Below, piece by piece: positions 545 through 41,371 of a stretch of DNA of 64,000 nucleotides. The notes below the pieces were generated by a model. That model saw only the letters and a list, made by a program, of their open reading frames with translations. It did no database searches and was not told the DNA's origin. Made by a program: the position numbers and the translations under genes. The DNA comes from a virus, in IMG/VR virus record IMGVR_UViG_3300036859_000312, positions 4,158 through 68,157 of that record; one strand, given 5' to 3'. How positions within the stretch are numbered: position 1 is the stretch's first letter; each line of letters begins with the position of its first letter.

Positions 545-689
545 TGGGTTTACCTCCACGGGGGTGTCTATAACACCGGCATGTTACCGCGGTTACGGGT
601 GTGGGGCGGTTGTGTACCGGAGAACCGCCTGCCCTCCAGATCCGGGCTGTGGTTGGGGTCACGGGGCGGACCGGGGGGCAGACGGCGAT

Positions 690-13117: not shown

Positions 13118-13408
13118 TTGGCCACCCTGATGACACCCGCACCGTCGGATATCCCGACCGAGGCTCAACCGGTCCTGGCTGAGATTGAACGCATGTCAGC
13201 CAGGATCATCGAACTGGAGAACGAACTGGGCATCGACCCAGCCCATAAACGGGACATCAGCGGGGGCCTCTACCAACAGCGCCTCCAGCTCTACGCGAAA
13301 GCCCGAGCTCTGAAAGTCCCCTATCCAGTGATCGGTAGCGCGGCGGATACCTCGGGTGAATCGGTGCGGGCAGCGATGCACAAACACAACCGCAACCACA
13401 GCCCGTAA
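13118..13408 (+). CDS. Putative HTH DNA-binding protein
   Basis: C-terminal VPYPVIGSAADTSGESVRAAM helix-turn-helix-like segment. Confidence 0.5.
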   Translation: MATLMTPAPSDIPTEAQPVLAEIERMSARIIELENELGIDPAHKRDISGGLYQQRLQLYAKARALKVPYPVIGSAADTSGESVRAAMHKHNRNHSP

Positions 13409-13427
13409 CCGCGGTAACATCTCTGTC

Positions 13428-14900
13428 GTGGACCCCACCCTCGAACAACAAACGGCGCTAAACCTGTTCTCTACAGGCGACGATCTGGCTATCGAAGCGG
13501 GGGCTGGCACCGGCAAGACGACGACGTTGCAGATGCTCGCCCGTTCAACCCAGCGGCTGGGTACCTACCTGTCGTTTAACCGGGCAATCGCCAACGAAGC
13601 GGCCCGCAAGATGCCGATGTTCGTGCAGTCGTCCACGATGCACAGCTTGGCGATGCGTACGGTCGGGCGTCGACTACGCCACCGTTTGGATGCTCCCCGG
13701 TTGAACGGCTGGCAGCTCGCGAAACGTATGGGCGTCGGACCGGTAGCGATGCAGACAGGCACTCGTAGCAAGGTGCTACAGCCCGGGTTTCTTGCCGGTC
13801 ATGTGATGAAGGCTGTTGCCCGGTTCTGCCAGTCTGCTGACGATGAACCTGCCGTCGGCCATTTCCCGTACATCGAGGGCATCGACCTACGAGACAGTGC
13901 CGGGGCCCGCACCTGTAACAACAACCGCGAACTAGCCAAGCTGCTGCTGCCTCATCTGCAGGACGCTTGGATTGACCTGACCGACCCGAACGGCCGGTTG
14001 CGGTTCTCCCATGACGTCTACCTGAAAGTCTGGCAGCTCGAACGGCACGAGATCCCAGGCGACTACGTCATGCTGGACGAAGCTCAAGACGCCAACGGGG
14101 TCATGCTCGCTGCCATGACGAACGCTGCTGCCGCCGGCAAACAGGTCGTGTACGTCGGCGATACCCAACAGCAGATCTACGAATGGCGTGGCGCCGTTAA
14201 CGCTCTCGCCAATGTTGACGGTAACCGTGCGTTCCTGACGCAGTCGTTCAGGTTCGGGCCGGCTATCGCCGAGGTAGCGAACTGCATCCTTGAGCAACTA
14301 CATGCTGAGCTGAGCCTGACTGGCACGGACAGCATCGACAGCACGGTCGGCACCCTGACGGCCTACGACGCGGTGCTGTGCCGCACCAACGCGACAGCCG
14401 TCAATTCGGTGCTAGCGCTGCAACGCCGCGGTTTGCAGCCGTTCCTTGCGGGCGGCGCCTCAGAGATCGTGGCATTCGCTAACGCAGCTATCGCCCTACA
14501 GAACGGCGAAAAGACCTACCACCCTGAACTGGCGTGTTTCGACACATGGCGCGAAGTTCAGGAGTACGTAGAACAAGACCCGCAGGGCGACGAACTACGG
14601 ATGATGGTCTACCTGCTGGACGAATACGGCCCTCAGATCGTCCTGGACGCCCTGACGGGCCTTGTCGGGGAGGATCAGGCCGACGTCATCGTTTCGACCG
14701 CTCACAAGGCAAAGGGACGTGAATGGGGCCAGGTGCATATCGCCCCTGACTTCGATGACGGCGAAGGCGAGACCGGTCTACAGCCCGCCGAGTGGCGGCT
14801 GTTGTACGTGGCTTGCACCCGGGCCCGGCATGCGCTCGATGTCACCTGGTGCAAACCCGTCCGCGATCTACTCGCCCGCCCTGTGCTAGCCCCCAACTAG
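13428..14900 (+). CDS. UvrD/Rep-like SF1 helicase
   Basis: AGAGTGKTT, DEAQD, VGD..QQIY.WRGA, LTQSFRF, STAHKAKGREW, LYVACTRA; leaderless GTG 7 nt after TAACAT. Confidence 0.92.
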   Translation: MDPTLEQQTALNLFSTGDDLAIEAGAGTGKTTTLQMLARSTQRLGTYLSFNRAIANEAARKMPMFVQSSTMHSLAMRTVGRRLRHRLDAPRLNGWQLAKRMGVGPVAMQTGTRSKVLQPGFLAGHVMKAVARFCQSADDEPAVGHFPYIEGIDLRDSAGARTCNNNRELAKLLLPHLQDAWIDLTDPNGRLRFSHDVYLKVWQLERHEIPGDYVMLDEAQDANGVMLAAMTNAAAAGKQVVYVGDTQQQIYEWRGAVNALANVDGNRAFLTQSFRFGPAIAEVANCILEQLHAELSLTGTDSIDSTVGTLTAYDAVLCRTNATAVNSVLALQRRGLQPFLAGGASEIVAFANAAIALQNGEKTYHPELACFDTWREVQEYVEQDPQGDELRMMVYLLDEYGPQIVLDALTGLVGEDQADVIVSTAHKAKGREWGQVHIAPDFDDGEGETGLQPAEWRLLYVACTRARHALDVTWCKPVRDLLARPVLAPN

Positions 14901-17110: not shown

Positions 17111-17458
17111 ATGGCAAACAGCAGCAGCATCGTCTATCAACCAGCATCCCTCCGGGCAGCCGCCCGGTCTGTGACCGACCGGATCCGTGCCGGCTTCCAA
17201 CCCTGGGTAGGCCCTGACAGGAAACAACGCTGGGCCCGTGTCTCTGGTAGCCGCATCGAAGAGGCACCTATCACCCCACCCGAAGGTGTCGTGCTTGATG
17301 AACTGGCGTTCCTGAACGAACACCAACCAGCTGGCGCGCTGCATTGGCATCGCCTGTTCGGCATGTGGCGTTCCCATCGTCACGACAACGGCAACAACGC
17401 TCACTCCCACTACGTTGGGGGCCCGAGCTTGCAGGCAGGAGAAATCGACACCCCATGA
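17111..17458 (+). CDS. Hypothetical protein
   Basis: AAGGAGG RBS. Confidence 0.55.
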   Translation: MANSSSIVYQPASLRAAARSVTDRIRAGFQPWVGPDRKQRWARVSGSRIEEAPITPPEGVVLDELAFLNEHQPAGALHWHRLFGMWRSHRHDNGNNAHSHYVGGPSLQAGEIDTP

Positions 17459-18060
17459 CATCGATCACCCCAGGCGATGCCGGTACCCGCTGGATCGAAT
17501 ACGAGCCGGTCGGCTCCCTGAAACCCCACCCGGACAACCCCAAGGGTCACGCCCTCGACGCGCTGGTCGCCGCGGTCGAACGATTCGATTACACAGAACC
17601 TGTCCTCGTCTGTGAACGCACCGGCTACATCGCAGCCGGTCATGGCCGCACCGAAGCCATCATGCGTCGTCTTGCAGCGGGCGATCCTCCGCCCGATGGA
17701 GTGGCCGTCGCCGCGGACACGGGGGAATGGCTTGTCCCTGTGGTGCATGGCTGGTCCAGCACCGACGATGACGAACTGCGCTTCTACCTGTTCGCATCGA
17801 ACCATCTCGGGCCCGCGGGCGGCTGGATAAACGATGTCCTCGCGCCGCTCCTTCAGGATCTCGCCGAGGCCCCGGCCGGTCTGAACGGCACCGGTCTGAC
17901 CAGTGACAGTCTGGACGCCCTGCTCGCCGAGGTCACGCAACCCGACTTTCAACCAGTCGACCCCGCTGATCAGCCCCGCCTAGACCGCAAGTTTCACCTG
18001 GTCTGCAACAACTGCGGCGCTGCGGTTGATCCGGCAGCAGCCGAACGCGTCGAACAGTGA
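17455..18060 (+). CDS. ParB/Srx N-terminal domain protein
   Basis: LKPHPDNPKGH...EPVLV...IAAGHGR; C-terminal CxxC. Confidence 0.8.
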   Translation: MTSITPGDAGTRWIEYEPVGSLKPHPDNPKGHALDALVAAVERFDYTEPVLVCERTGYIAAGHGRTEAIMRRLAAGDPPPDGVAVAADTGEWLVPVVHGWSSTDDDELRFYLFASNHLGPAGGWINDVLAPLLQDLAEAPAGLNGTGLTSDSLDALLAEVTQPDFQPVDPADQPRLDRKFHLVCNNCGAAVDPAAAERVEQ

Positions 18061-18713
18061 CACTGCTGGTGGCGCCGTGTTCCCGCGACGCTGCCCTACA
18101 CGCCACCCGATGGTGGCACTACTCCCGATCCATGCCGCTAGGGCGGGTCATCTGCTACGGGGCCTGGTGGCAAGGCGAATTCAGAGGCGCTGTCGTCTAT
18201 GCCAGAGGCAACAACCGACATTTAGGCAAGCCCTACGGCCTGTCCGACAGCCGGCATGTCGTAGAGCTATGCCGCATCGCCCTGGACGATCACCCCGAGT
18301 TTCCTGTTACCCAGGTCGTCGCCCGAACCCTCAGCCAACTACAACACACCAACTCTGGACTACGGCTCGCCCTATCCTTTGCTGACCCTGAGCACGGCCA
18401 CGACGGTGCCATCTACCGGGCCGGGAACTGGATCTACTTAGGCCGCACAGAGCCCGTCCGTTACTTCTTGCATCGCGGCCGATGGGTGCACCAACGAGAC
18501 GTGACCGGCGCACCGCAGTTCCACAGTCGAGCATCAGGGATCCATCACCCCAATGTCGGCGGCAACCAGTCGCATATAGACATCGCGGCCCTCCCCTTCC
18601 GCGAGGCCTCCCCCAAGCACCGCTACGGCTACCCCTTCGACCGGGCCATGCGCCGCCAGTTGACCCATCTGTCAGTACCGTTCCCCGGGCAACGGTTGAA
18701 GATCGCTGAATGA
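18057..18713 (+). CDS. mom: Mom-family (GNAT) adenine-modification protein, copy 1
   Basis: HYS, ELCRIAL, SFADPEHGHDGAIYRAGNWIYLG, KHRY. Confidence 0.85.
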   Translation: MTLLVAPCSRDAALHATRWWHYSRSMPLGRVICYGAWWQGEFRGAVVYARGNNRHLGKPYGLSDSRHVVELCRIALDDHPEFPVTQVVARTLSQLQHTNSGLRLALSFADPEHGHDGAIYRAGNWIYLGRTEPVRYFLHRGRWVHQRDVTGAPQFHSRASGIHHPNVGGNQSHIDIAALPFREASPKHRYGYPFDRAMRRQLTHLSVPFPGQRLKIAE

Positions 18714-19389
18714 TGGATCAGCTGATCGTGGCCCCCTGTTCGCATGACGCCGCTAAGCACGCGGTGATGAACTGGCACTACAGCCGGGCCATGCCTACCG
18801 GCAAATTCGTGAAGCTAGGCGTTTGGGAAGACTCCCGATTCATCGGGGCAGTGCTATTTGGGCGGGGGCCGGCCCGTCAGCTCGGTAATCCGTTTGGGCC
18901 AGCCCGGTACAGGCCAGTGAGCTGGTCAAGGTTGCCTTAACAACTCACGACAACCCGACCAGCCAAATCGTTGCGAATGCTGTCGGAGTCCTACGAAGAT
19001 CCAACCCAGGGCTCCGGGTTTTGGTGTCGTTCGCTGATGAGGCCCAGGGCCATCATGGGACGCTCTATCAGGCGTTGAACTGGGTCTATACCGGATCGGT
19101 CTCCCAATCAGTGGTGTGTGTCCATGGACACCCAGTGCATAAGAAGAGCTTGTGGCGCCGCTATGGCACAGTCCGTATCGACTGGATACGCCAGAACGTG
19201 GATCCGCATGCGACGTGGGAGATGCAGCCGCCCAAGCATCGCTACGTGTTCCCTCTCGACCGGGCAATGCGTAAGACCGTGACTGCCATGGCATTACCGT
19301 ACCCACGCGGCCGAGGGCTCGAAGGTGAGCCGCTGGTGTCCCACACCAGAGGGGCGGGTTCGATCCCCGCCGGCCGCTCCATCCGTTAG
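18710..19389 (+). CDS. mom: Mom-family protein, copy 2, with a frame break near 18899
   Basis: N-half (HYS...LGNPFG) and C-half (SELVKVAL...SFADEAQGHHGTLYQALNW...KHRY) lie in frames offset by -1. Confidence 0.8.
19307..19381 (+). tRNA. Non-canonical tRNA-Gly(CCC) inside the mom-2 3' end
   Basis: GCGGCCG/CGGCCGC acceptor, U73 and encoded CCA; CTGGT-GTCCCAC-ACCAG; GCGGG-TTCGATC-CCCGC. Confidence 0.8.
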
Positions 19390-19958: not shown

Positions 19959-19976
19959 CCCGTGGAAAGGACCCCC

Positions 19977-20711: not shown

Positions 20712-20813
20712 CACCCCATTGCCGCGGATCTGTTAGCGCGGCTACGGTAGGGTTCGCTTAGCAGCCGCACCCCTGGAGGGCGCCCCACCTACAACAGAAT
20801 TCCCCTAGCGAAC

Positions 20814-20940
20814 GCAGGGTCCGGGAGTTTCCCTGGATGGTCAGTCCCGGACCTTGCACGCAGCCACCAGCTGTCCGGTAAACGCGCACAGCCGGATCAC
20901 GAAGAGGTTGGTGGCTGCGTGCAGGGAGGACCCCTGCATT
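20814..20940 (+). ncRNA. Structured RNA element, copy 2
   Basis: 20814-26 pairs 20845-57; 20852-72 pairs 20906-26; terminal GCAGGG-AGGA-CCCCTGCA. Confidence 0.65.
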
Positions 20941-20963
20941 ATTTCCCGTGGAAAGGAATCAAC

Positions 20964-22034
20964 ATGCCCGCATTCTTCGATTGTGGTTTCTCGGTCCGTC
21001 AGCCCATGTGGCATGGCGCTGGTGTCGTCTTGGACGACTACCCCGAGGATTGGGATGCCGCCCGTCTGGCCGCTGGCCTGATGTGGGAACCCACCCCCAA
21101 GCCCGTCTATACGCAGCACCTGCTGACCGCCGTTCAGGCGGAGGCTCTGATCGCCGACGGTGGCGAAGCCCATCGAATCGACCAGCCGTCCTACTCGAAC
21201 CCGGACGCCAAGTACCGGTACATGGTCGCCGAATCCGACTTCCAGGCCATCGCCCGGGACGACACCGGCGACGTGCTGGCGGTGCCCGGTTCCGGTTTCA
21301 AGGCCGTGACTCACGCTCAGATGGGCGAGGTCATCGAAGCGGTCCTGGAATCCGATCAGGGCGTCAAGTTCGAGACCGCTGGCAGTTGCCGCGGTGGCCG
21401 CCAGGTGTGGGCGCTTGCCTACCTGGATGAGCCCTACCAGATCGGCGGAGACAGCAGCCCGATCTATCCGTTCCTGGCGTTCCTGAACGGCCATGACGGC
21501 TCGGCTGCCTGCAAGCTCCCGATCACCGACGTGCGGGTTGTGTGCTGGAATACCTGGAACGCAGCCGCTGCCCAGGGTGACCGCACAGGCGCCCAGTACG
21601 TGTTCAAGCACGTCGGGGACATCTCCCAGCACATCGAGGACGCCAAGGACGCCCTGAAGCAAGTGCGTGAGGACTCGAAGGCCACCCGGGCCCTGTTCGA
21701 GGAACTGGCCAAGGTCCCGGTGAACGACGATCAGGTCAAGACGTTCACGCAACTGTTCCTGCCGTCGCCGGCCGACAAAGGCGATTTCGTCTCGGAGCGT
21801 GTCGCCGGGAACATCGCCAAGGCACGGGCCAAGTTCATCCATCTGCATGACGAGGCGATCACGACCGACGGGATCCGCGGCACGGCCTACGGGCTGCTGC
21901 AAGCCTCTACCGAGTACCTCGACCATGTGCGTGGCTTCCGCAGCAACGACACCTACATGGGCCGCACGTTGCTGAAGCCCGAGAAGCTGAAGGCGGAGGC
22001 CTTGGCGCTGATCGGGGAGATCACGAGCAACTAG
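20964..22034 (+). CDS. DUF932 (TIGR03299-like) phage/plasmid protein
   Basis: MWHGAG...AGLMW, ETAGSCRGGRQVW, NGHDGS, RVVCWNT, GTAYGLLQA.TEY.DH. Confidence 0.85.
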   Translation: MPAFFDCGFSVRQPMWHGAGVVLDDYPEDWDAARLAAGLMWEPTPKPVYTQHLLTAVQAEALIADGGEAHRIDQPSYSNPDAKYRYMVAESDFQAIARDDTGDVLAVPGSGFKAVTHAQMGEVIEAVLESDQGVKFETAGSCRGGRQVWALAYLDEPYQIGGDSSPIYPFLAFLNGHDGSAACKLPITDVRVVCWNTWNAAAAQGDRTGAQYVFKHVGDISQHIEDAKDALKQVREDSKATRALFEELAKVPVNDDQVKTFTQLFLPSPADKGDFVSERVAGNIAKARAKFIHLHDEAITTDGIRGTAYGLLQASTEYLDHVRGFRSNDTYMGRTLLKPEKLKAEALALIGEITSN

Positions 22035-22047
22035 TTCCCCGCCACCA

Positions 22048-22153
22048 GCAGGGCACGGGACACCCCGTCCACGCCCCGTGCCCTGCGTGAGCTGTACCGA
22101 CCGGCATTACAGCGGACCGGTCGGTACAGCTCACGCAGGGAGTTCCCTTGCAT
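22048..22153 (+). ncRNA. Structured RNA element, copy 3
   Basis: 22048-59 pairs 22075-86; perfect 24-bp stem 22081-104/22117-140; terminal GCAGGG-AGTT-CCCTTGCA. Confidence 0.65.
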
Positions 22154-22299
22154 GCGAGACGCCCGGGTTGCTGATGCCGCGCAGCATTAGCCGTCGGGCT
22201 AGCACGATCGTGAAAGCACCCCTAACCGGACTCGCTGGATGATCCGGGCGCCTCGATATCAACCCCCAGCGATCACAACCCCCGTGGAAAGGACACCCA

Positions 22300-23268
22300 A
22301 TGCTCAACGACATCGCCAAGCTCCCCAAGTGGGCGCAGATACACATCCGCGATCAGGCAGCCAAGATCAGCCGCCTAGAGATTCAGGTCACGGACATACA
22401 GCTCGCCCGCAACGCGGGCGCGAGCGATACCGAAACGTTCGTGGACCACGTCATCCCCCATGACGACGACCCGCAACGCTTTCAGCGGCTGCCGCGAGGC
22501 GCACACATCGTGTGGTGGACAGGCGAGGGCTACCCCGTCCCGCACTTCGGCCGCATTGGCGCCTATTGGAACTTCAGCGAGCAGGCAGTGGTGCTCACTA
22601 CTTCCGGTGCGGGTCGTCTCTCGGTCGAACCGCAGATGAACAACTGCGTACTGATCCGGGAGACGGGCCGATGAGCGACGACCGCAACACCGAACGCCGT
22701 CAGCTTCGAGTCGTCAAGGTCGAGGGACTGCGAGACAGCGGCTGGGTGGAGGTCTCCGCTGATGACGGCGGAAACAACACGGTCACCTACACGACCACAG
22801 CCGACCGGGCGCCCCGTGTGGGCGTCAACGTCAGCGTCTACATCGAGGTCATCCGATGAACGCTCTCACAGCGATCGCTGAGGCCCGCGCCGAGTTGTCC
22901 GCTCTATCTCGCGGGCCCGGTATGGCCCTGACAGCCGACACCCCTTCGATCCGCTATGCCGGCCGTGACGGCTGGATAGCGGCCCGTAGTGGCGCTTTGG
23001 GCCCCGAGGCCCGGGTGTTCAGCACTCTGAGCCTGGCGTTCGCGTTCACAGAGGCTGCACGGTGATCGGCTACCAGCCCAGGCACATGGCGTCGTCTGAG
23101 ACGGCCTATGTTGCCTTGTGCGGCGATCGACAGGTCCGCCATAACGGCACCTTCCCGACGATCGGCCAGGCCGCTGACTGGACAATCAACGGCCTGTGTT
23201 GCCTCGGCCGTCATCGCGTCATCCTCGCGGATATGTGCCCGACTCAGCTCGGGACAGCCGACGGGTAG
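22300..23268 (+). other. Four small coupled ORFs (22300-22674, 22671-22859, 22856-23065, 23062-23268)
   Basis: ATGA/GTGA overlaps; CCCGTGGAAAGGA RBS at 22281. Confidence 0.65.
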
Positions 23269-23273
23269 CATCC

Positions 23274-23394
23274 CCTAAGACCGCTACCGGGCTTCCTCCG
23301 AGGTTCGGGCGGGCTCCTTCCACGGGAGTTAGACACACCCCCACGACCTGTGCCTCACCCGGCCCTCCAGTCGTGGGGGTGTGTCGCGTCTAGG
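23274..23394 (+). ncRNA. Cloverleaf-like candidate antisense sRNA
   Basis: Three hairpins (23287-308, 23313-329, 16-bp stem 23332-385) within a closing stem; loops are pyrimidine-rich and anti-SD-like. Confidence 0.5.
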
Positions 23395-23759
23395 CTTAAG
23401 CCCGTCTCACAACCATGAACCATGGAGCGGACGCGGGGGACACTGGTGCTTTCGCCTGGTGCCGCGGTGGTAGATGCGATGATCCGGCCACAGTGTGAAG
23501 GCCGGGGAGCCAAACCACTGAACCCCCGCACCTCTACTCTCAACACACATGCAACCCGACCCCTGAACTTCCAACACTCGGAGTATCCGATGATCCGTCG
23601 CCTTTGGTCTCGTCGGGCCCGCCGCCGGTTGCGGCGCCGGGCGATAGGGGTGCAGTTGCCACCCGAGCAGGCCGCTCAGCTGAACACGACAGCGTGGCGA
23701 CGGGCTGACGGCCAGGACGTTCGTGCGTCGACGTCACCGGTCCGTTACCGTCTGTGACC

Positions 23760-24431
23760 ATGGCGAACGGACACGGCGGTAGACGACCAGGCGCAGGGGC
23801 TGTGCCCCGCAACCTGCACGACGTCATCGACCGTCGTGAAAACAACGACGGCACGGTCACAGAAGTAACGGTCCTGGACCGGATCGAAGAAGCCATGCGT
23901 TCGGGCGGGTTCCTCCACGACGCCGCGGCCCGTGTCGGTATCACTGTTGAGACGTTGCGGGACTGGCGCCGCCAGGGCGTCCGAGCCCACCTGGACATCT
24001 TGAACGGCCGCAAGTCCCGGTCGGAGTTCAAACCCCGCGAGCTGGACTACCTGGACATGGCCCTCCGTATGGAGAAAGCGGAGACCGACGCCCGCCTGTT
24101 CCTGCTCGGTACCGCCCAGCAGCTGGCCCGTGGCGGTATCCCCCAGGTGGAACGCACAGTTCGCACGGTCCCCGCCCGGAACGGCAAACCGGAAACGGTA
24201 GAGACGATCGAGAAGACGACAGCGACGTTGCCGGACGCCGGCACGATCCGCTGGCTGCTCTCTCACCGTTGGCCCAACGACTTCGCGGGCCGTGTGGAGA
24301 TCACCGGGCCCGAGGGCGGACCTATCCAGCACGACACCACAAACGCGATCGGCAAGCTCCGCGAACTGATCGGCAACACCCAAACCAACCAGCAGCCCGC
24401 ACCGGAACCCACCGGCAACGGACACCACTAG
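23760..24431 (+). CDS. terS: Terminase small subunit
   Basis: GGRRPGAG start, HTH (DAAARVGITVETLRDW), WLL..RWP..F and VEITGPEGGPI. Confidence 0.75.
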   Translation: MANGHGGRRPGAGAVPRNLHDVIDRRENNDGTVTEVTVLDRIEEAMRSGGFLHDAAARVGITVETLRDWRRQGVRAHLDILNGRKSRSEFKPRELDYLDMALRMEKAETDARLFLLGTAQQLARGGIPQVERTVRTVPARNGKPETVETIEKTTATLPDAGTIRWLLSHRWPNDFAGRVEITGPEGGPIQHDTTNAIGKLRELIGNTQTNQQPAPEPTGNGHH

Positions 24432-24714: not shown

Positions 24715-25304
24715 CAACGCCCGCAAGTCGGCCGGTGCTGGCTGCCCGACCGGACGGGCTACCGCCAGCACGTCACGGTGAACCTGCCGCCAGCAGGACC
24801 CGTAAACGGCTGACGGCAGCCCAGCGGGCGCCCACTAACATCCCCACCCGGTAGCCTGCCGGTGGGCATCCATGCGGCAGGGGTGCCCCCGAGCTGCCCA
24901 GGGGCCAGGGTACGAAGCGGGTAGCTCCCGCGGGACACTGGCAATCCCGTCGACTCGGAGGGAACCGCCGATCGCCCTTGGCCTGGAGATGCACTGGACC
25001 AGGGGCGCGGCCTACCAGCCCCGGCACCTATACTCCGCCCCGCCACGATGATGATGATGGTGATTGCGAGACCAGGGGACCGGGCCCTAGCTCGGCAGCG
25101 CCACGGACCCCGTCCCCTGGCCCCTCCCCCTGCTAGCCTCCCTAACCGGGCGTGGACGGCCGTCTGACCATTGAAAGATGGCCACCCGCTTGCTGGACGA
25201 GACCTTGCACTCGCTCAAGCGGTTGCCGCCGCGCAGCGGCTCAAGGCGACCGACACGCCCCAACCCCCTTAACCCCCAAACGCAACCGCGGTAACATGAC
25301 CGGC

Positions 25305-27801: not shown

Positions 27802-30321
27802 TGTTGTTCGATGGTGGGCCCGGGATCCTGTGTTCTGTGTGTCGGCAGGCCAAGCCCCGTCACGCCTACGGCTTCCGTGAGCGTCCCGGTGGTCTGCCGC
27901 CGCTGCACTTCGAGGCTGACTGTGGGCAACCCGTCTGCGACGACTGCAAGGAAACCCGACCTGATCCGTGACCGCGGTAACATGCCGGGTGCGTTCTCAC
28001 CCCATGGAGGATCTATGAAGGACGACCCCACTCTCCCCAAGCCCCGGTCGGCTGCTCAGATCAAGTGGGCTCAGATGCCCGGTCAGGCCCGGTACACGTT
28101 GGTTGTCGTGCTCGGGTCCGCGGGCGTGGTGCTGGTGTCCGGCGCGTTGGCGGTGTCGGCCCGCCTGCTCGAATGGGGAGGGCTGATCGGTGGCTGAGCC
28201 CGCCAACGCTGAGCCTGTAAGGGACCCCGCTGAGATCCGCATCATCGTCCGTTCCTGGGTCGTCTTTGTGGCCGCGTTAGTGACCATGTTCGGGCTGGCC
28301 ATAGCGGGCACGATCGCGGCGGGAATCGGGTTCTATCAGCTGCTGCACAGCCAAGCCCCCAACCCGCTGACCTTCATGGCGCCCATTGTCTGTGGGGTGT
28401 TGGTGATCGTGGTTGCTCGGAGCGCTGAGGACACGATCGCCCGGTACGAACGCCGGTTAAGGCGCCGGTCGTGAACCGGTTCTCTGCTCTCGCTAGGTGG
28501 TTCGCTGAGGCTGGCCGGGATGTCGTTGCGGTCGCTGGAATGGTGCCCGCTGGTCTGGCTGGCGCACACGCTGCGATACGGGCGAAGACCGACGAGGAAG
28601 ACGCCTGGCTCCGCCTTCAGGCCGTGTGCTCGCCCGAGACGTTCGGGGATTTTCTGTACGTTGCTGAGGAACGAGCCCGGTCGATCGAGCGCAGTTGGGC
28701 TACCGGGATCCATTGTCCCCGAAGACTGGACGATGGGTTCGCCTATGAGACCCCGTTGGCGGCCGCGTACCGTTCCGTTACCCAGGACATCATGTGGACG
28801 GGGCGCGAGATGCCGTCGCTCGGAGAATCGCAACGCTGATGCCCCTGACCCTCAGGAAACTGCTGTGCCGGATCCTGGGTCACAAAGGACAGCTCATAGA
28901 CATGCGCCCGGACCCTGGGCTAACTGTGATCAACAGCGCTGGCCTCGATGTCGCTGTGCCGCTTGAGTGGTGGCGTTGCACCCGTTGCCCACACCGTTGG
29001 GAACACACCAGATCGTTCGTCTACATGCCCTAGAAGGAGAACCCCACCAATGACCCCCACCCTCACCCCTGTACCGGCGGCGTCCGCTGACGGCAAGCTG
29101 ATCTACCCGGATGAGGCCGAACGCGGCGAATACGTCATCGTGGCCACTTCCGACCTGAGAATCTGGCTAACCAACCGGCACGTCGACGGGCCTGACATTC
29201 AGGAATGGCTGAAGGCGCACGACTTCTTCCCTGACTACAGAGCAGTCCGTCGTACCGAGCCGTCCGATGCAGCCGATGTGTTCACCACTGAGCTGGGCGA
29301 TTCCGAACTCGACGCCCTGGTCGCTGTCTCCTACTTGCTCAGCAACCTGCCGTCCGATGCCCGGGCCCGTGTCGCCGGCTACGCGCATCAACGGTGGGGA
29401 GGCGTAGGAACTCTTTACATTCCGTCTGTGGTGAGCAATGAACTTCCCGGCAGCTGACACCCGGTGCGGGTTCTGTGGCCATCCGTTCATCGCTCACCCG
29501 GCGGCGGCTTCGGTCATCGCCCCGACGCTTTCCGAGCAGCCAGGCATCATGTGGCCGTGTGGGACTGAAGGCTGCGACTGCGATGACTTCGCTATGCCGG
29601 GCTCGGTCCTGGAGCTGGGCGAGATCAGCAACAATTGACGTAACCGGCGCTATGTGGCCCGAGCTGCGAAACTGACAGTCATGCAGACCCCCACCCCCAA
29701 TGCAGATGTTCTGCTAAGCGAGCCTGGCTACGACTACACGACCACTGTCGATGTGCCCCTGGAATGGACTTGTGTTTGCCAGGTGTGCGGGAGCCGTGTC
29801 CTGACCATTGTTCAGTACTGGGCGGAGCCGAACGAGAATTCGCTGCGGGACATCGAGACCGATCCTCCGTTCTGTGTCGCCAGCACGGCTACCGGATTCA
29901 ACGGGGCCCGTCTAGAGCCATGCGGCCACTACGTGCGCCAGTACATGGTTTCTACTGGTAAACCCGACGACGATCCTGCCCCGGCCCTCCCACAGGCGGA
30001 GCACGCCTGGCGCTGTTCATGTGGGCACCTGAACGAAGGCAAGTTCGGGCGGAGCGGCTGTAACGACGGGGACTACTACAGCATCTGTGACGGCTGCGGA
30101 TACGAGTGCATAGAGCGTCGTGGCCAGGTGACCGGCCGCTATCTGCTGATCCCGATCAGCGAACCGTGGAAGGCCCCATTCGATGTGGCCTGAACCGTAT
30201 GACCCTGTGCCCCTGTGGCAGCCCCGCTGTTCCCGTTGCGGCGATCTCTGCTGGATCGCCCAACCCCATGCCCCTCGAATCACAATGCCGTGCCCCGATT
30301 GTCAGCCTGGTGCCGCCATGA
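27801..30321 (+). other. Small ORFs (27801-27971, 28015-28197, 28190-28474, 28471-28839, 28839-29033, 29050-29457, 29438-29638, 29681-30193, 30199-30321)
   Basis: Coupled ORFs; two membrane proteins and several Zn-finger-like proteins. Confidence 0.6.
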
Positions 30322-30351: not shown

Positions 30352-31785
30352 GTGGCCCAGTCCTTAGCCGAAGCTCTGGCGGTCCTACCGCAGGAACAAC
30401 AGGACTCGTTCTACGCGGACCTGACCGAGGCCGAAGCTCGGGCCCTGCTCGTCGACTGGCAGTTCTGGGGTCGGCCCGAGCAGCACCCGCCGGACTGGTT
30501 GTGGCGCTGGTGGATGATCGTCACGGGCCGCGGGTGGGGCAAGAACCGCACCGCGGCTGAATGGGTCATCACCCGCTGCGAGCTGTTCGCTAGGGCCGGT
30601 ATCCCGCATCTGGTCGGGCTGATCGGCCAGAACAACGACGACGTCAAGGGTCTCCAGATTGGCGGTGTGTCCGGTCTCCGTGAGGTGGTCCGCCGCCGCG
30701 GGCACCGCTGGGTTGGTGCCATTGGGACTCTGACACCGAAGGTGCAGATCCTGCGGGATGACAGCACGTGGCACACGACAGAGTTCGAGGTGCATACCGC
30801 CGAGCAGCCCGAAGGCCCCCGAGGCCGGAACTTCCACACCCTGTGGATAGATGAGCTGGCCGCCTACAAACACAAGACCGACGCTGTTGGCAACACCGTG
30901 TTCACGAACGCTGAGCTGGCGTTGCGTGGCACATGTCCGGACGGGGAGATACCGCGGGCTGTTGTCACGACCACCCCTAAACCGATCCCGGTGGTGCGTG
31001 ACCTGCTCGCGAAGAAACACGGCCCGACGCACATCACCCGCGGGTCGATGTTCGATAACCGCTCGAACCTGCCACCGGAGTTCATCGCCGCGATTGTGGG
31101 CCGTTACGCCGGCACCCGTTTGGCCGCCCAGGAGATCGATGGCGCCATTATCGATTCAGTCGAGGGCGCCTTGTGGAACGCCGAGATTATCCACAGGTGG
31201 CGTGTCACAGCCGATCGGGTGCCGGCCCTATCGAAAGTCGTCATCGCGGTCGACCCGTCAGGTTCCGACGACGGCGACGAATGCGGCATCGTCGTGGCCG
31301 GCCTCGGGCAAGAACTAGACCAGCGTGGCCTGCAACACGTCTACGTTCTCGATGACCTGTCGATGCAGAACCGGCCTGAGCTGTGGGCCCAGGCCGTGAC
31401 CGGCGCCTACTACGACTGGGTCAGCCGCACCGGCCCGGAAACATCGGTGGTGGCTGTCGCTGAAGTGAACTTTGGTGCCGCTCTGGTGCGGGACGTCATC
31501 AAGCTGACAGACCGTCTGGTGCCGTTCGAAGAGGTGCGGGCCTCGCGGGGTAAACGTGTCCGGGCCGAACCGGTAGCGACCATGTACGACGCCGGCCAGG
31601 GTCGCATTCATCATGTCGGTGTGTTCCCACAGCTCGAAGAACAGCAATGCTATTGGACGCCGCTCGACCCGACGTCACCGGACCGTATGGATGCCCTGGT
31701 GTGGGCTGCGTCGTATCTGATCCCGGACTTGACGATCCCACCGGCCGATTACGCCAAGGGTTGGGCCGCTCGGCGTGCCGCCTGA
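30352..31785 (+). CDS. terL: Terminase large subunit
   Basis: GRGWGKNRT, WIDELAA, VTTTP, QEIDG, IAVDPS, SPDRMDA. Confidence 0.93.
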   Translation: MAQSLAEALAVLPQEQQDSFYADLTEAEARALLVDWQFWGRPEQHPPDWLWRWWMIVTGRGWGKNRTAAEWVITRCELFARAGIPHLVGLIGQNNDDVKGLQIGGVSGLREVVRRRGHRWVGAIGTLTPKVQILRDDSTWHTTEFEVHTAEQPEGPRGRNFHTLWIDELAAYKHKTDAVGNTVFTNAELALRGTCPDGEIPRAVVTTTPKPIPVVRDLLAKKHGPTHITRGSMFDNRSNLPPEFIAAIVGRYAGTRLAAQEIDGAIIDSVEGALWNAEIIHRWRVTADRVPALSKVVIAVDPSGSDDGDECGIVVAGLGQELDQRGLQHVYVLDDLSMQNRPELWAQAVTGAYYDWVSRTGPETSVVAVAEVNFGAALVRDVIKLTDRLVPFEEVRASRGKRVRAEPVATMYDAGQGRIHHVGVFPQLEEQQCYWTPLDPTSPDRMDALVWAASYLIPDLTIPPADYAKGWAARRAA

Positions 31786-32134: not shown

Positions 32135-34045
32135 GTGGGCGACCGGCTCCCTCGACCAGTCAAGGCCACCACAGCTGCCGCGAAGGTCCTACAGGCAACA
32201 ATCCATGACGCGCCCCGACCCGAGTCCTGGCATGACGAAGCGTGGGCGTTCCGGGACACGACCGGCGAGTTGGCTTACGCGGAGCTGTGGCTGGCGAACA
32301 GCCTGTCCCGTGTCCGGCTGATAGCCGCCCAACGGCCCGAACCGGGCGCCGAACCGGAGCCGGTCACGTCCGGCCCTGCCGCCGAATTGGTGGCTGCGCT
32401 GGCGGGTGGTCCTGGCGGCCAGTCGAGCCTGTTGCGGTCGTTCGCTCCCCAGCTATTGACGCCGGGAGTCGGCTACCTGGTCGGGGAACCGACCATGAAC
32501 GGCGCTGACGAATGGGGTGTCTATTCGGCCGATCAGATACGGCTGAGCACACGTGGCAGCCCGGACGGCCTACGCACCTACGATCTGATGGAGGGCCCCA
32601 ACGCGCAGGACTGGCGGCAGCTACCCCCGGGCGCGTTGCCGGTCAAGGTGTGGCGTCCTCACCCGCGGTTCAGTTGGCTGCCGGATTCTCCGGTGCGGGC
32701 GGCGCTGCCGATCCTGCGGGAACTGGCGCTGCTGTCGATGCATGTCGCTGCGTCAGCGACGTCGCGTCTGGCCGGTGCGGGCATTCTGGCGATGGATTCG
32801 AGCATCCAGTTCCCGGACGGCTGGGAAAAGTGGGTCGAGGAGTTCCTGGAGACCGTGAACCGGCCGATCAAGGATCGGGCCTCGGCGGCGGCACATACTC
32901 CATTCCCGTTACGGATCCCGGTCGCTAAGGGCGAGAAGGTCACTGACAAGCTCGCTCATCTGATGTTCAGCACGCCGTTCGATGAGCAGTCGATGAAGCT
33001 GCGTGATGAGGCAATCGACCGGTTGGCGACCACTTTGGATATGCCCAAGCGGGCCCTGAAAGGTGAACAGGAAAACCATTGGGGCAAGTGGGCCACTACT
33101 GAAGAAGGCATCACGCTGCATGTCGAACCGAACATGGAGCTTGTCGCTGAGGGCCTGACCCGTGGCTATTTGGATCCGGCGATGTCGCTTGTGCAGGGCC
33201 GTCGTGACGGCGAGTTGTTCACCCGAGGGAACGAGCGACGGCGGCTCGGGCTGCGGGATGTGTCGGCTCCGCCGGGCGATTTCATTGTCTGGTACGACAC
33301 GTCGAATCTCGCGACCCGCCCGGACAAGTCGACTGACGCCCGTGAGGCGTACGACCGGTGGGAGGCGTCTGGCGACGATCTACGCGACGAGGCTGGTATC
33401 TCTGACGCGAGACCTCCTGAGGGCGCCGAGTTCGAGCGGCGTGCCTATATCCAGTTGTTGACGTCGACCGATCCGGAGATTCAGCGGCTGGCGATCACGA
33501 AGCTCGGTCTCGCCGATGAAGATGAGATCCCTGCCCGCTCGCCGGTCGTGCAGGCCCTTCCCGGACCGAGCGAACCCGAACCTGAGCAGGAACGTGAGCA
33601 GGAACCGCCGCCCCGGGCGTTGCCGTCGACTCGTGAGGAACCGGCCCCGAGTGAGGAACCGCAGGTTGCCAGCGTGGCGCCAGCGGTGGCGGTTGTCGCC
33701 GCGTGTGACGGGCTGGTGTTCCGTGCTCTAGAGAAGGCCGGTAACCGGCTACGGCAGGCGCACCGTCGGCAACTGAACGGCGCGACGGACTGCACAGCTG
33801 TGCTGATGCACACCTGCCTGAACGCCACCAGCATCCGCACCATGGACCAGCTGTTGGATGGCGCCTGGGATCGTGTCCCCGAGATAGCGGGGATGCTCGG
33901 CGAACCGGTCGATGAGCTATGTGCCGTGCTCGATAGCTACACCAGGATCTTGATTCGTACGGCTCAGCCGCATAGCTGGGATCGCCTGGCGTGCGCGTTG
34001 GGTTGTGACGCCGAGCTGCCTTGCCCCGAGGCGGTACCGGCATGA
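32135..34045 (+). CDS. Portal protein
   Basis: Follows terL; W..EAW...GEL.Y...W.ANSLSRVRL, WRPHPR..DSP, NHW motifs of actinophage portals. Confidence 0.88.
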   Translation: MGDRLPRPVKATTAAAKVLQATIHDAPRPESWHDEAWAFRDTTGELAYAELWLANSLSRVRLIAAQRPEPGAEPEPVTSGPAAELVAALAGGPGGQSSLLRSFAPQLLTPGVGYLVGEPTMNGADEWGVYSADQIRLSTRGSPDGLRTYDLMEGPNAQDWRQLPPGALPVKVWRPHPRFSWLPDSPVRAALPILRELALLSMHVAASATSRLAGAGILAMDSSIQFPDGWEKWVEEFLETVNRPIKDRASAAAHTPFPLRIPVAKGEKVTDKLAHLMFSTPFDEQSMKLRDEAIDRLATTLDMPKRALKGEQENHWGKWATTEEGITLHVEPNMELVAEGLTRGYLDPAMSLVQGRRDGELFTRGNERRRLGLRDVSAPPGDFIVWYDTSNLATRPDKSTDAREAYDRWEASGDDLRDEAGISDARPPEGAEFERRAYIQLLTSTDPEIQRLAITKLGLADEDEIPARSPVVQALPGPSEPEPEQEREQEPPPRALPSTREEPAPSEEPQVASVAPAVAVVAACDGLVFRALEKAGNRLRQAHRRQLNGATDCTAVLMHTCLNATSIRTMDQLLDGAWDRVPEIAGMLGEPVDELCAVLDSYTRILIRTAQPHSWDRLACALGCDAELPCPEAVPA

Positions 34046-37000: not shown

Positions 37001-37383
37001 GAGAACGGGGCATCGTGTGGGCGGCCGGCGCTCTGGAACCCGCGGTGACAGTCGATCAGGTGTCACGCATGTTGGCATGCCGCCTGTCGGGGGATTGGCA
37101 GCCGCATTCGGATCGGGCGGGCTGGCAGGAACTGATCGCCGCGCTGCTCGTCCCTTCGCCCGGGTTCCCGATGGAACACGGCGGCGCTCGTGTCGACCTT
37201 GAGGAGGGCGTCCTGGTGGCCTCATCGGTGCCTGTGCGGGCTGTGGGGGCCAGTACCCGGCCGAGGCTACGTATCGACCGCAGAGCGGGCACAGTGGCCC
37301 GTGTAGTGCCGTTGACGGCCCGTGAACAGGTCGCCGCGATCGCGGATCGGGTTCGGGGTGAAGGCCACAAGGGCGGACACTGA
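34042..37383 (+). CDS. MuF minor head protein / 2H phosphoesterase / capsid maturation protease fusion
   Basis: IARTE, KQWLAT.D.RTRPSH, NCRC (MuF); HVT...HMC (2H); VSIGLD, LSGDW, PGFP (protease region). Confidence 0.8.
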   Translation: MTRIRHLLAVQALEEEATDRVLAALRDVMKDVTDVINPITAAAEPQPSAESFLSADDLAHIQTGWTAAVDGSVLPWYRTVFIAGADAATDQVAAMREIATEIIGDGDPLLINEAATRHLATARNRFLLVGQETWAAARNELLAGFAEGEGIDPIRRRLQDVVDLSKAQAIAIARTEVISASNAGAITRVRAMGSDAPKFKQWLATNDARTRPSHRAANNTVVPIDAKFEVGDARLDYPGDPTGPDSETVNCRCTPIFVDDPGSDSAGLDLADEVASIVAAAHWTDHLADPWQLGVQLERGGVNFGIAKGGVRMPVSQEILQTDCWQFDSPHSVTSDMEATPAGVDYMNALADAAAVQIDSTTGETHTGTMIALVPTDPESLAVDGGEPADQLHVTLWFLGEVEAIPAELQTAILSNIGDVATRLPPVDAQVFGAAVWNPTGDAPCCVLSVGGSGLDRIRDLTLFAVVEADAGQTDGWLMPDQHTPWAAHMCVAYTDDPPAVMPDALLTVGPLMLDTIRVAFGGETHDILLTGDTGDFSEAEMGTEIASAQVTGPDLEDNQEADMPYGIRRGGTDCPFEVYNSDTDERAPGGCHATRQEALDHQQALMVNVPDAAAAGYSEGDCPPGHHMMPDGECMPDGDMAVTDVLPAQPGEHFHAIMHTQGLSTGFRTFNDLSWREPPFAYHWQRSSSAHGGMPETFQVGLVNRVMPDPDNPEVLHAWGVLDLNGDLGAEYARMLVDGFARWVSIGLDEQPTSETIIWPEDSDGKEDDFSKLFDSPDQVIINGGRIGELCGVSVPAQDNATVEPTAELVDLVSRGQPGETVVAAAVADVPPAAAAMTPDSESTDHLEATVDTVADIVQGLTAAAHRIEIPHVPPRWWFDEPTDVDIAGALYVTDEGRIYGALAPLGVNHRAFSQAGRRQEVPFGNVDYGRFMGAVALTQTGRIPAGPVTMDCGHANRFRTDHDQAPAHYDNACTVVAKICVGESRERGIVWAAGALEPAVTVDQVSRMLACRLSGDWQPHSDRAGWQELIAALLVPSPGFPMEHGGARVDLEEGVLVASSVPVRAVGASTRPRLRIDRRAGTVARVVPLTAREQVAAIADRVRGEGHKGGH

Positions 37384-40830: not shown

Positions 40831-41171
40831 TGGACGGCCTCGATGTGCGCAACGAATCCGTATCGGTAGGCGAGGCCATGAGCATGTGAGGGCCGCATCT
40901 GTCGGGTGTCGAGTTGGATGCGGTGCGTCTGGCGCTCAGCGTTGTCGCTGCCGCATCGTTCCTGGGCGCTGGTGTGTGCCACGTAGGCGGCGCCCAGGTC
41001 GGACACCAGGGAACCGATGTCGGGTGAGAGGCAGTGTTGGTAGCCGCCGAAGTCTCGGGCGACTAGCACAGTGATGTGCCGTCCGCAGATGCAGCCGGTG
41101 CAGTCGTCCGGCCAGGTGCATTGCCGACGGGTATGGGTGAACTGGCCGCAAGTACAGGGTGTTGGTGCCAT
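40827..41171 (-). CDS. Cys/His-rich hypothetical protein
   Basis: CCCGTGGAAAGGA RBS at 41191-41179; TACACT -10 upstream. Confidence 0.65.
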   Translation of the reverse strand: MAPTPCTCGQFTHTRRQCTWPDDCTGCICGRHITVLVARDFGGYQHCLSPDIGSLVSDLGAAYVAHTSAQERCGSDNAERQTHRIQLDTRQMRPSHAHGLAYRYGFVAHIEAVQ

Positions 41172-41371
41172 GGCCCGATCCTTTCCACGGGATAATCCCC
41201 CACCAGTGTAACCCCGGTAACGGGCGTGCGCGTGACAGATTGGTCTGTCTGAGGCATACTCGATGCCGTTCCCGCTGGGCTGGCGTAGCCGTCCCGGGAG
41301 ATAGCTCGACCTGGTCGAGTCGCTTACTTGAAGCACGCGCACTCCTGGGTGCGTTGTCGAGAGGAACCGAC

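What the first reader, a model, noticed from the sequence alone, without database searches (positions are those of the whole stretch)
23274..23394. Cloverleaf sRNA at the operon end with loops antisense to the extended RBS
Seen: the only copy of the extended RBS not followed by a nearby start codon is inverted here (CTCCTTCCACGGG, 23314-23326). On the + strand it folds so that TCCAC, complementary to GTGGA, is an exposed loop. The neighbouring loops are CTCC and ...CCCTCCA, both anti-Shine-Dalgarno-like. G-U pairs again indicate a + strand RNA. Inference: a trans-acting antisense RNA made at the end of the early operon that shuts off all CCCGTGGA-tagged genes, conceptually like P1 c4 or P4 CI RNA.
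Basis: inference. Interest (0 to 1): 0.7.

Follow-up and report, generated by a model that had tools for sequence, protein, structure and literature searches.

The report
Hairpin cluster carrying an inverted start motif
A three-hairpin RNA-like structure sits between a soil phage's replication genes and its packaging genes and carries a backwards copy of the phage's own start-of-gene tag; it is most likely an operon-end structure, with a real but unproven chance of silencing the tagged genes.

Summary
The described sequence is there. 23274-23394 folds on the + strand into a closed four-way junction (-66.8 kcal/mol, z -5.1). Most of that signal comes from one perfect 16-bp hairpin (HP3), which is equally strong on both strands. 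HP1 and HP2 are weak, form on the + strand only, and HP2 disappears if the RNA reads through.

The "extended RBS" is real: CCCGTGGAAAGGA occurs 4 times exactly, each 5-7 nt before an ATG. The inverted near-copy in HP2 is the only other locus within edit distance 1 (chance about 0.08 per window).

The element starts 5 nt after the last gene of the non-structural + strand block. It lies about 370 nt upstream of a leaderless promoter and a small-terminase gene. Syntenic relatives carry different strong hairpin elements at this boundary and lack the motif and its complement. No Rfam family, tRNA call or RNA data applies.

Best reading: an operon-boundary RNA structure (terminator or 3'-end protector). 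The antisense idea is untested. One unexpected parallel supports it: Cluster K mycobacteriophages carry their single inverted start-associated sequence in the loop of a covarying hairpin, in the intergenic region where late transcription starts. TM4, Pixie, Keshu and the Cluster EF phage AnnaSerena lack such a copy.

The parts
23274..23394 (+). Whole four-way-junction element: closing stem 23274-23281/23388-23394 enclosing HP1, HP2 and HP3.
   Evidence: MFE -66.8 kcal/mol, z -5.12, 46 pairs.
23282..23311 (+). HP1: 9-bp stem plus a 3-bp extension, loop CTCC (23296-23299), 3 G-U pairs. Forms on the + strand only.
   Evidence: -12.4 kcal/mol; 8 of 200 shuffles do as well.
23312..23330 (+). HP2: 7-bp stem with 3 G-U pairs, loop TCCAC. 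It carries the inverted start-tag near-copy at 23314-23326.
   Evidence: Stable only if the RNA ends near 23394.
23332..23385 (.). HP3: perfect 16-bp inverted repeat with a 22-nt spacer. The dominant structure, equally strong on both strands, with no U-tract after it.
   Evidence: I7; z -6.4 and -6.6. Not listed by the terminator scan.
23392..23401 (.). 10-bp perfect palindrome GGCTTAAGCC. It competes with HP2 for pairing in read-through RNA.
23062..23268 (+). Last ORF of the upstream + strand block (68 aa, GC3 0.80). Its stop codon is 5 nt before the element. A -10-like hexamer, TAGCAT, overlaps the stop at 23266-23271.
   Evidence: and sequence. The promoter reading is inference only.
23746..23762 (+). 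TACCGT hexamer 8 nt before the ATG (23760) of the small-terminase gene: a leaderless-type promoter.
   Evidence: a TANNNT hexamer lies 6-8 nt before the ATG in the window and in all 7 distinct relatives' loci.
23760..24431 (+). Small terminase subunit-like gene, the first gene after the gap.
   Evidence: PHROG 4102, E 1.4e-8; 20 homologues besides the window's own protein.
19959..19971 (+). Start tag CCCGTGGAAAGGA, exact copy, ATG 5 nt downstream.
20945..20957 (+). Start tag, exact copy, before the DUF932 gene (ATG 20964).
22281..22293 (+). Start tag, exact copy, before the DUF7239 gene (ATG 22300).
41179..41191 (-). Start tag, exact copy, before a - strand gene (ATG about 41172).
550..562 (-). 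Variant tag CCCGTGGAGGTAA before a - strand gene.

Best explanation
The element is the structured RNA end of the + strand non-structural transcription unit. It acts as a boundary element that insulates that unit from the packaging and structural operon, which starts at the leaderless small-terminase promoter.

Mechanism (inferred): RNA polymerase coming from the upstream genes transcribes HP1, HP2 and then the 16-bp HP3. HP3 either stops transcription without a U-tract or protects the processed 3' end from exonucleases. The closing stem packs the three hairpins into a compact 3'-terminal domain.

Shown: the position, the fold statistics, the strand asymmetry of HP1 and HP2, and the fact that relatives also carry strong hairpins at this boundary. 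Inferred: termination or 3'-end protection itself.

The inverted start tag in HP2 may add an antisense function. That is scored separately as a rival and as the novel case.
For: The element begins 5 nt after the stop of the last + strand ORF. The region 23269-23589 lacks a coding GC3 signal.

The next certain gene is a small-terminase homologue. It has a TANNNT hexamer 8 nt before its ATG, a feature shared by all 7 distinct relatives' loci.

All 6 relatives' intergenic regions that were folded carry strong GC-rich hairpins between the upstream stop and that promoter.

Elsewhere in the window, strong inverted repeats also sit 160-200 nt upstream of promoter-like motifs: 13173-13205 before 13405, and 25072-25120 before 25282.

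HP1+HP2 fold only on the transcribed strand. HP3 has z -6.4.
Against: No U-tract follows HP3, and the consensus terminator scan does not list it. The same scan does find U-tailed hairpins nearby, for example at 28633-28647.

HP3 is perfectly symmetric, so it fits a DNA-level site equally well.

A plain terminator does not explain the inverted start tag, whose chance expectation is 0.09 loci per window.

No transcript data exist for this phage.
Confidence: 0.45

Rival explanations
1. Antisense regulator. The 3'-terminal domain of the early transcript, or an RNA cut from it, uses the HP2 loop and stem (CUCCUUCCACGGG) to pair with the CCCGUGGAAAGGA tag. The tag covers the Shine-Dalgarno region of the tagged genes, so pairing blocks their translation. 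It could act in trans, or in cis on the same polycistronic RNA.
For: Twelve of 13 tag positions are complementary, with one bulged A. The near-copy is the only extra locus within edit distance 1 (expected 0.09).

HP2 exposes UCCAC when the RNA ends at 23394. Net cofold gain is -10.7, -12.6 and -8.6 kcal/mol for the three + strand tagged start regions and -9.4 for the variant, against -3.1 +/- 2.3 for 42 others (circular by construction).

Independent parallel. In Anaya and Adephagia the single inverted SAS, noted without explanation by Pope et al. 2011 (PMC3203893, passages read), lies in the apical loop of a hairpin. In an alignment of 11 Cluster K phages, 7 of its 15 pairs show compensatory changes. 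It sits in the gene 92-93 gap, where Adephagia late transcription is reported to start (PMC11373665, passage read).
Against: No RNA evidence. The fourth tagged start (41172, - strand) gains only -2.1 kcal/mol. HP2 is lost in read-through RNA.

G001, the syntenic relative, has its own shared leader motif (2 copies) and no inverted copy. None of G001-G003 has the tag.

In Cluster K the loop drifts (Bryler, Syra333, Amgine, Hammy), is replaced (Keshu, Pixie) or is deleted (Yuna). The SAS itself stays unchanged in Bryler: 15 copies with at most 1 mismatch.

The TM4 right arm and the whole AnnaSerena genome (10 forward SAS copies) have no intergenic inverted copy.
Confidence: 0.3
2. DNA-level site. 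The perfect 16-bp inverted repeat and the neighbouring palindrome form a protein-binding or packaging site (pac or cos, or a regulator site for the late promoter) next to the small-terminase gene. The inverted tag would be a second-orientation binding site for a tag-binding protein.
For: The site is adjacent to the small-terminase gene. HP3 is perfectly symmetric and equally stable on both strands. The palindrome GGCTTAAGCC lies at 23392-23401.

The genome assembles as a circle, so the true ends are unknown: the first and last 200 bp repeat, and a second assembly is a different permutation.

Pope et al. 2011 left open whether SAS bind a protein or an RNA.
Against: HP1 and HP2 need G-U pairs and do not form on the - strand or as DNA. 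The tags are strictly oriented 5-7 nt before ATGs, which points to an RNA-level role. Relatives' elements at this place differ in sequence.
Confidence: 0.15
3. 5' leader of a late transcript. A promoter overlapping the stop codon (TAGCAT, 23266-23271) starts an RNA at about 23278. That RNA carries the element ahead of ORF 23590-23757 and the terminase gene. The structure would then be a leader or processing site, not a 3' end.
For: A TANNNT hexamer preceded by GG resembles the -10 part of the phage's repeated promoter-like motif ...CCGCGGTAACAT. In Adephagia, late transcription starts in the analogous gap. Another gap in this phage (20712-20963) appears to have a promoter-like TACGGT soon after the stop, followed by a long structured leader (inference).
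Against: Only the last 8 positions resemble the motif. The consensus promoter scan finds nothing here. The terminase gene has its own leaderless-type promoter 480 nt downstream.
Confidence: 0.1

Closest known systems
Start-associated sequences (SAS) of Cluster K mycobacteriophages, and their single inverted copy (Pope et al. 2011, PMC3203893)
   Same: Both are asymmetric 13-nt motifs holding the Shine-Dalgarno core, repeated exactly a few nt before ATG starts of mostly non-structural genes. Both have one inverted copy with no gene start. Here that copy lies in a hairpin in the gap between the non-structural genes and the late operon. In Anaya and Adephagia I found it in a hairpin loop in the gap where late transcription is reported to start.
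   Different: The motif sequence is different. There are 4-5 copies here against 11-19. The phage is unrelated (terminase below 40% identity to any deposited phage). Here the complement is half buried in a weak 7-bp stem, not displayed in a 10-16-nt loop. No function is known for either motif.
Phage P1 c4 and P4 CI antisense RNAs
   Same: As recalled, these are small structured RNAs made from the same operon as their targets. Their loops pair with sites at or near ribosome-binding sites or leaders.
   Different: No RNA, processing or repression is shown here. There is no sequence or Rfam similarity. The proposed targets are four to five dispersed genes.
3'-UTR anti-Shine-Dalgarno pairing in icaR mRNA of Staphylococcus aureus (PMC3868564; search listing and abstract start only)
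   Same: A pyrimidine-rich anti-SD stretch downstream of the coding region is able to pair with a ribosome-binding site on the same RNA.
   Different: That is a single-gene mRNA. Here the tagged start sites lie 1-3.4 kb upstream on a presumed polycistronic RNA. Nothing has been tested.
Factor-independent terminators and 3'-end hairpins of high-GC Gram-positive bacteria (general knowledge)
   Same: A GC-rich hairpin directly after the last gene of an operon, upstream of the next promoter.
   Different: No U-tract. Three hairpins are closed into one junction instead of a single stem-loop.
The 'GCAGG' three-way-junction element found here in this phage group (model R1)
   Same: A multi-hairpin, closed structure in intergenic gaps of the same gene block. 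In relatives G001 and G002 it occupies the syntenic gap before the small-terminase gene.
   Different: The finding scores only 6.1 bits (E 1.5) against R1. The window's true copies score 51.4 bits (22043-22151) and 39.2 bits (20809-20937).

Membership tests
Any Rfam 15 family | Covariance-model score at or above the family's gathering score. | tested here: not met
   only two tRNA hits in the window. (E up to 10, 23150-23700): only VA RNA at 22.4 bits (gathering 62) and mir-3179 at 15.7 bits (gathering 90), both on HP3.
tRNA or tRNA-like cloverleaf | Called by ARAGORN or by the Rfam tRNA model. | tested here: not met
   tRNAs only at 3516, 19307 and 24642. Nothing at 23274-23394.
'GCAGG' intergenic element of this phage group (model R1) | Significant score against the covariance model built from L060, L061 and L067. 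| tested here: not met
   filters off: best overlap is 23304-23405 at 6.1 bits, E 1.5.
Canonical intrinsic terminator | GC-rich stem-loop. | tested here: met
   HP3: 16 perfect pairs, -38.6 kcal/mol.
Canonical intrinsic terminator | Run of U directly after the stem. | tested here: not met
   The sequence after 23385 is GCGTCTAGGCTTAAGCCC. The site is not listed.
SAS-type start tag (Cluster K sense) | Several identical asymmetric 13-mers 3-9 nt before start codons, mostly ATG. | tested here: met
   Four exact copies, each with ATG 5-7 nt downstream. The sequence is unrelated to the Cluster K motif, so this is an analogue, not a member.
SAS-type start tag (Cluster K sense) | Motif conserved across related phages. 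| tested here: not met
   Zero matches at up to 2 mismatches in G001, G002 and G003. 57 single, scattered hits in IMG/VR, consistent with chance.
Same-operon antisense RNA (c4/CI type) or 3'-UTR-derived sRNA | A discrete stable RNA is produced. | not testable with these tools
   Only DNA contigs of two soil runs were available.
Same-operon antisense RNA (c4/CI type) or 3'-UTR-derived sRNA | Exposed loop complementary to target ribosome-binding sites. | tested here: inconclusive
   Complementarity is present, and the UCCAC loop is exposed only if the RNA ends at 23394.
cos or pac site | Lies next to the terminase genes. | tested here: met
   The small-terminase homologue starts at 23760. The large terminase is at 30352-31785.
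cos or pac site | Coincides with the virion DNA ends or the packaging start. | not testable with these tools
   No raw reads were available. The assemblies break elsewhere.

The most novel reading that the evidence does not exclude
Start-tag systems of actinobacteriophages come with a matching anti-tag RNA. This would be a hairpin at the early/late boundary that displays the complement of the tag and pairs with all tagged ribosome-binding sites, switching off that gene set once the boundary RNA accumulates. The window's HP2 and the covarying anti-SAS hairpin of the Anaya/Adephagia group of Cluster K mycobacteriophages would be two independent inventions of this switch. That would give the first function for SAS motifs, which were still described as of unknown role in the 2024 and 2025 papers read here.
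Probability: 0.3. Interest if true: 0.8.

Novelty: new variant of a known kind. Interest (0 to 1): 0.5.

Why it matters
Start-associated sequences were described in 2011. Their role was still called ill-defined or in need of experimental verification in the 2024 and 2025 papers read here.

A start tag and one inverted copy in a boundary hairpin occur together in this uncultured soil phage and in the Anaya/Adephagia group of Cluster K. If this is not coincidence, it gives a concrete, testable mechanism: RNA-RNA masking of tagged ribosome-binding sites. It also gives a cultivable system to test it, Adephagia in Mycobacterium smegmatis.

If it is coincidence, the element is an ordinary operon-end hairpin cluster.

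Tried and rejected
Close relatives of the element:
- Megablast and blastn of the region against deposited phages found no match.
- An IMG/VR scan for both arms of HP3 found 0 hits.
- IMG/VR scans with single flanking proteins found nothing usable. The DUF932 query gave one 26% hit, L059.
- The closest small-terminase homologue (P0002, 72% identity, a 3.9-kb contig) could not be fetched. The one metagenome scan returned other loci.
- As a result, no covariation test of the element itself was possible.

Motif scan of IMG/VR for tag+ATG: 57 contigs with one hit each, judged to be chance.

Transcription evidence: no RNA holder was listed for the stretch. The two runs laid are contigs of DNA runs, and one is probably the source. 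A part of X2 without cover says nothing.

Homology between the element's - strand and the regions upstream of real tags: none beyond the 13-mer. Local alignment scores of 21-24 fall within the shuffled range of 17.3 +/- 2.6, maximum 30.

A - strand gene served by the inverted tag: rejected. No ATG, GTG or TTG follows within the usual spacing. The nearest - strand ATG is 43 nt away, in an ORF that overlaps a better + strand ORF.

The downstream 23395-23535 as a second structured domain: not significant, z -1.16 on + and -0.24 on -.

Earlier notes of this scan: none for this genome.

Supplementary files of the SAS papers (site tables and figures S3/S4 of PMC3203893; Supplementary Table 3 of PMC12699233) were not seen. 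They may list the inverted sites.

Full report
WHAT THE WINDOW IS

The window is bases 4158-68157 of a 68,157-bp IMG/VR virus record from soil. Its first and last 200 bp repeat each other. An independent assembly of the probable source run is a 67,987-bp contig with a different break point. The genome therefore assembles as a circle of about 67.96 kb, and its physical ends are unknown.

GC content is 62-66%. Nearly all genes lie on the + strand. Recognisable genes:
- Mu Gam-like protein, 1286-1945 (-)
- replication initiator-like protein, 2209-2754
- UvrD-type helicase, 13356-14900
- ParB-like protein, 17344-18060
- two Mom-family ORFs, 18057-18713 and 19021-19389
- DUF932, 20964-22034, and DUF7239, 22300-22674
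- small terminase-like protein, 23760-24431 (PHROG 4102, E 1.4e-8)
- large terminase, 30352-31785
- portal, 32135-34045
- MuF-like protein, 34021-37383
- major head protein, 41159-43282

The large terminase is below 40% identical to any deposited phage. The best hits infect Actinobacteria.

THE OBSERVATION

The 121 nt at 23274-23394 fold on the + strand into a seven-pair closing stem around three hairpins:
- HP1, 23282-23311, loop CUCC
- HP2, 23312-23330, loop UCCAC
- HP3, 23332-23385, a perfect 16-bp stem

The fold is far better than shuffles (z -5.12, 0 of 200 as good). HP3 supplies most of this and is equally strong on both strands (z -6.4 and -6.6). HP1+HP2 are modest: z -2.05 on +, with 4 of 200 shuffles as good. 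They do not form on the - strand (z +0.44), because 6 of their pairs are G-U.

HP2 exists only if the RNA ends near 23394. With 140-200 nt more downstream sequence its pair probabilities fall to 0.01-0.19, because GGGCUCC then pairs with the palindrome region at 23392-23401.

THE START TAG

CCCGTGGAAAGGA occurs four times exactly, at 19959+, 20945+, 22281+ and 41191-. Each copy is followed by ATG after 5-7 nt. A variant precedes the gene at 545(-).

The only other locus within edit distance 1 is the inverted copy in HP2, which lacks one A. Random second-order sequences give 0.09 such loci per window, and 8.3% have at least one. No start codon follows the inverted copy on the - strand. The flanks of the inverted copy share nothing with the flanks of real tags.

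SURROUNDINGS

The element starts 5 nt after the stop of the last + strand ORF of the non-structural block (23062-23268, GC3 0.80). The next 320 nt lack a coding signal. A 55-codon Arg-rich ORF at 23590-23757 is doubtful.

The small-terminase gene has TACCGT 8 nt before its ATG. The same TANNNT-6-8 nt-ATG arrangement is present in all 7 distinct relatives' loci. I read this as a promoter for a leaderless mRNA, from general knowledge of actinobacterial promoters. The element therefore lies at the boundary between two transcription units.

The phage also has a repeated promoter or operator-like motif, G(C/T)(A/T/G)ACCGCGGTAAC(A/G)T, at seven places. Several are followed by a start codon 7-8 nt later. 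In two cases a strong inverted repeat lies 160-200 nt upstream of such a motif. This is the same layout as at the finding.

RELATIVES

- Single-protein scans of IMG/VR found nothing close.
- A profile of 20 small-terminase homologues retrieved 3 viral, 5 metagenome and 1 MAG locus. The MAG is labelled Iamia sp.
- L063 equals L060 over the stretch printed. L078 appears to match L067 in the gap, judged by eye from the printout.
- G001 (61 kb) is syntenic from the helicase to the large terminase, at 41-69% protein identity.
- In all 6 relatives' gaps that were folded, strong GC hairpins lie between the upstream stop and the terminase promoter. They differ in sequence.

L060, L061 and L067 share a 160-nt three-way junction, which I call the 'GCAGG' element. 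Seven pairs have compensatory changes, from only 3 sequences. A covariance model of it (R1) found extra copies:
- in G002 at 54 bits
- in G001 at 51 bits, just after DUF932
- in G003 at 33 bits
- in the window at 22043-22151 (51.4 bits) and 20809-20937 (39.2 bits), both just upstream of tagged genes

The finding itself scores 6.1 bits (E 1.5). It is not a member, although it occupies the place that a 'GCAGG' copy holds in G001 and G002.

None of G001-G003 has the tag. G001 has its own shared leader motif, CCCGACACAC(A)GGAG, before the homologues of two tagged genes. It has no inverted copy of that motif.

KNOWN FAMILIES

No Rfam family matches. There is no tRNA call. The terminator and promoter consensus scan lists nothing in the element.

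A PARALLEL FROM THE LITERATURE

Pope et al. 2011 (PMC3203893; passages read) described 13-bp start-associated sequences (SAS, GGGATAGGAGCCC) in Cluster K mycobacteriophages. [quoted passage not shown] They gave no explanation, and left open whether SAS bind an RNA or a protein.

I located that site in two phages:
- Anaya, 59870-59882, in the 385-nt gap between genes 96 and 97
- Adephagia, 58682, in the 432-nt gap between genes 92 and 93

On the + strand it forms the apical loop of a hairpin.

The Adephagia gap matched 182 Cluster K records. I fetched 11 of them and aligned them with Adephagia, Anaya and Pixie, giving 14 sequences:
- 7 of 14 carry CCTCCTATCCC in the loop
- 4 carry a pyrimidine-rich variant (Bryler, Syra333, Amgine, Hammy)
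- 2 have another loop (Keshu, Pixie)
- 1 has a deletion (Yuna)

I then folded 11 of the 14, dropping Keshu, Pixie and Yuna because their loop region does not align. This gave 15 consensus pairs, 7 of them with compensatory changes.

[quoted passage not shown] This is the same kind of boundary as in the window.

Evidence against a general rule:
- Bryler keeps the SAS unchanged (15 copies with at most 1 mismatch) although its loop has drifted.
- The TM4 and Pixie right arms have no intergenic inverted copy.
- The Cluster EF phage AnnaSerena has 10 forward copies of its own SAS, GGGAAAGGACCCC (PMC7302621; passages read), and no inverted copy within edit distance 2 in its whole genome.

Two searches of the held library for the term found 3 and 7 papers. 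I searched five of them for the terms SAS, opposite, antisense or non-coding. None of the passages returned proposes an anti-SAS RNA. Supplements could not be seen.

FEASIBILITY

Cofolding the element with 60-nt start regions gives a net -10.7, -12.6 and -8.6 kcal/mol for the three + strand tagged genes. It gives -2.1 for the - strand one and -9.4 for the variant. For 42 other start regions the mean is -3.1, sd 2.3, best -9.0. This shows that pairing can pay for unfolding HP2. It is not independent evidence, because the complementarity was the starting observation.

WEIGHING

What is shown:
- a strong hairpin cluster exactly at an operon boundary
- strand-specific small hairpins
- a non-trivial inverted copy of a real start tag
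- relatives that keep structure, but not sequence, at this boundary

The plain reading is a boundary terminator or 3'-end protector. It needs no further assumptions and fits the relatives. I give it 0.45, because the missing U-tract and the inverted tag are left unexplained.

The antisense reading gets 0.30. Two unrelated tag systems place their only inverted copy in a hairpin at the early/late boundary, which is hard to call coincidence. Against that, other tag-bearing phages manage without one, and no RNA has been seen.

A DNA-level site next to the terminase gene gets 0.15. A late-transcript leader gets 0.10.

NOVELTY

The hairpin cluster as such is ordinary. The tag/anti-tag pairing is not described as a mechanism in the papers I could read. 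If real, it would be a new variant of antisense control and a first function for SAS-type motifs.

Noticed in passing
window 20809-20937 and 22043-22151; L068 8071-8232 and 8740-8847; L075 3111-3272 and 3990-4114; L062 206-388: A family of about 110-180-nt 'GCAGG' three-way-junction elements in intergenic gaps of this phage group. The segments ACGCAGG / CCTGCGT / ACGCAGGG / CCCTGC can pair in two alternative ways, like an attenuator. In the window both copies sit just upstream of tagged genes. No Rfam match.
   Followed up: partly
window 583(-), 2084(-), 5764, 13405, 25282, 27968, 41208(-): Seven copies of a palindromic promoter or operator-like motif, G(C/T)(A/T/G)ACCGCGGTAAC(A/G)T. The TAAC(A/G)T part lies 7-8 nt before a start codon at 13428 (helicase) and 25305. 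This suggests leaderless genes under one regulator.
   Followed up: partly
window 23746-23762 and loci L060-L067: The small-terminase genes of the window and of 7 distinct relatives all have a TANNNT hexamer 6-8 nt before the ATG. This looks like a conserved leaderless start of the packaging operon.
   Followed up: partly
Mycobacterium phages Anaya 59849-59905 and Adephagia 58661-58718 (loci L079, L080): The single inverted SAS of these Cluster K phages lies in the loop of a conserved hairpin with compensatory changes. It sits in the gap where late transcription is reported to start. The papers read do not discuss this.
   Followed up: partly
whole record G000: The first and last 200 bp of the IMG/VR record repeat each other, and a second assembly is a different circular permutation. 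The record is classed 'linear' but assembles as a circle of about 67.96 kb.
   Followed up: yes
window 19307-19378: Rfam calls a tRNA here (43.5 bits) that ARAGORN does not. It overlaps the end of ORF 19021-19389, which matches only the C-terminal half of the Mom family and lies next to a full-length Mom-family gene at 18057-18713.
   Followed up: no
window 23590-23757: A 55-codon, arginine-rich ORF with a GGAG 6 nt before its ATG. It has a weak coding signal and no family match, so whether it is a gene is unclear.
   Followed up: partly
window 34021-37383: A 1120-aa MuF-like protein with weak, below-cutoff matches to 2'-5' RNA ligase / LigT-like phosphoesterase domains in residues 395-511.
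   Followed up: no
G001 (L068) 9868 and 10690, - strand of the record: The syntenic relative has its own duplicated promoter-plus-leader module ending in CCCGACACAC(A)GGAG. It lies before the homologues of two of the window's tagged genes.
   Followed up: partly
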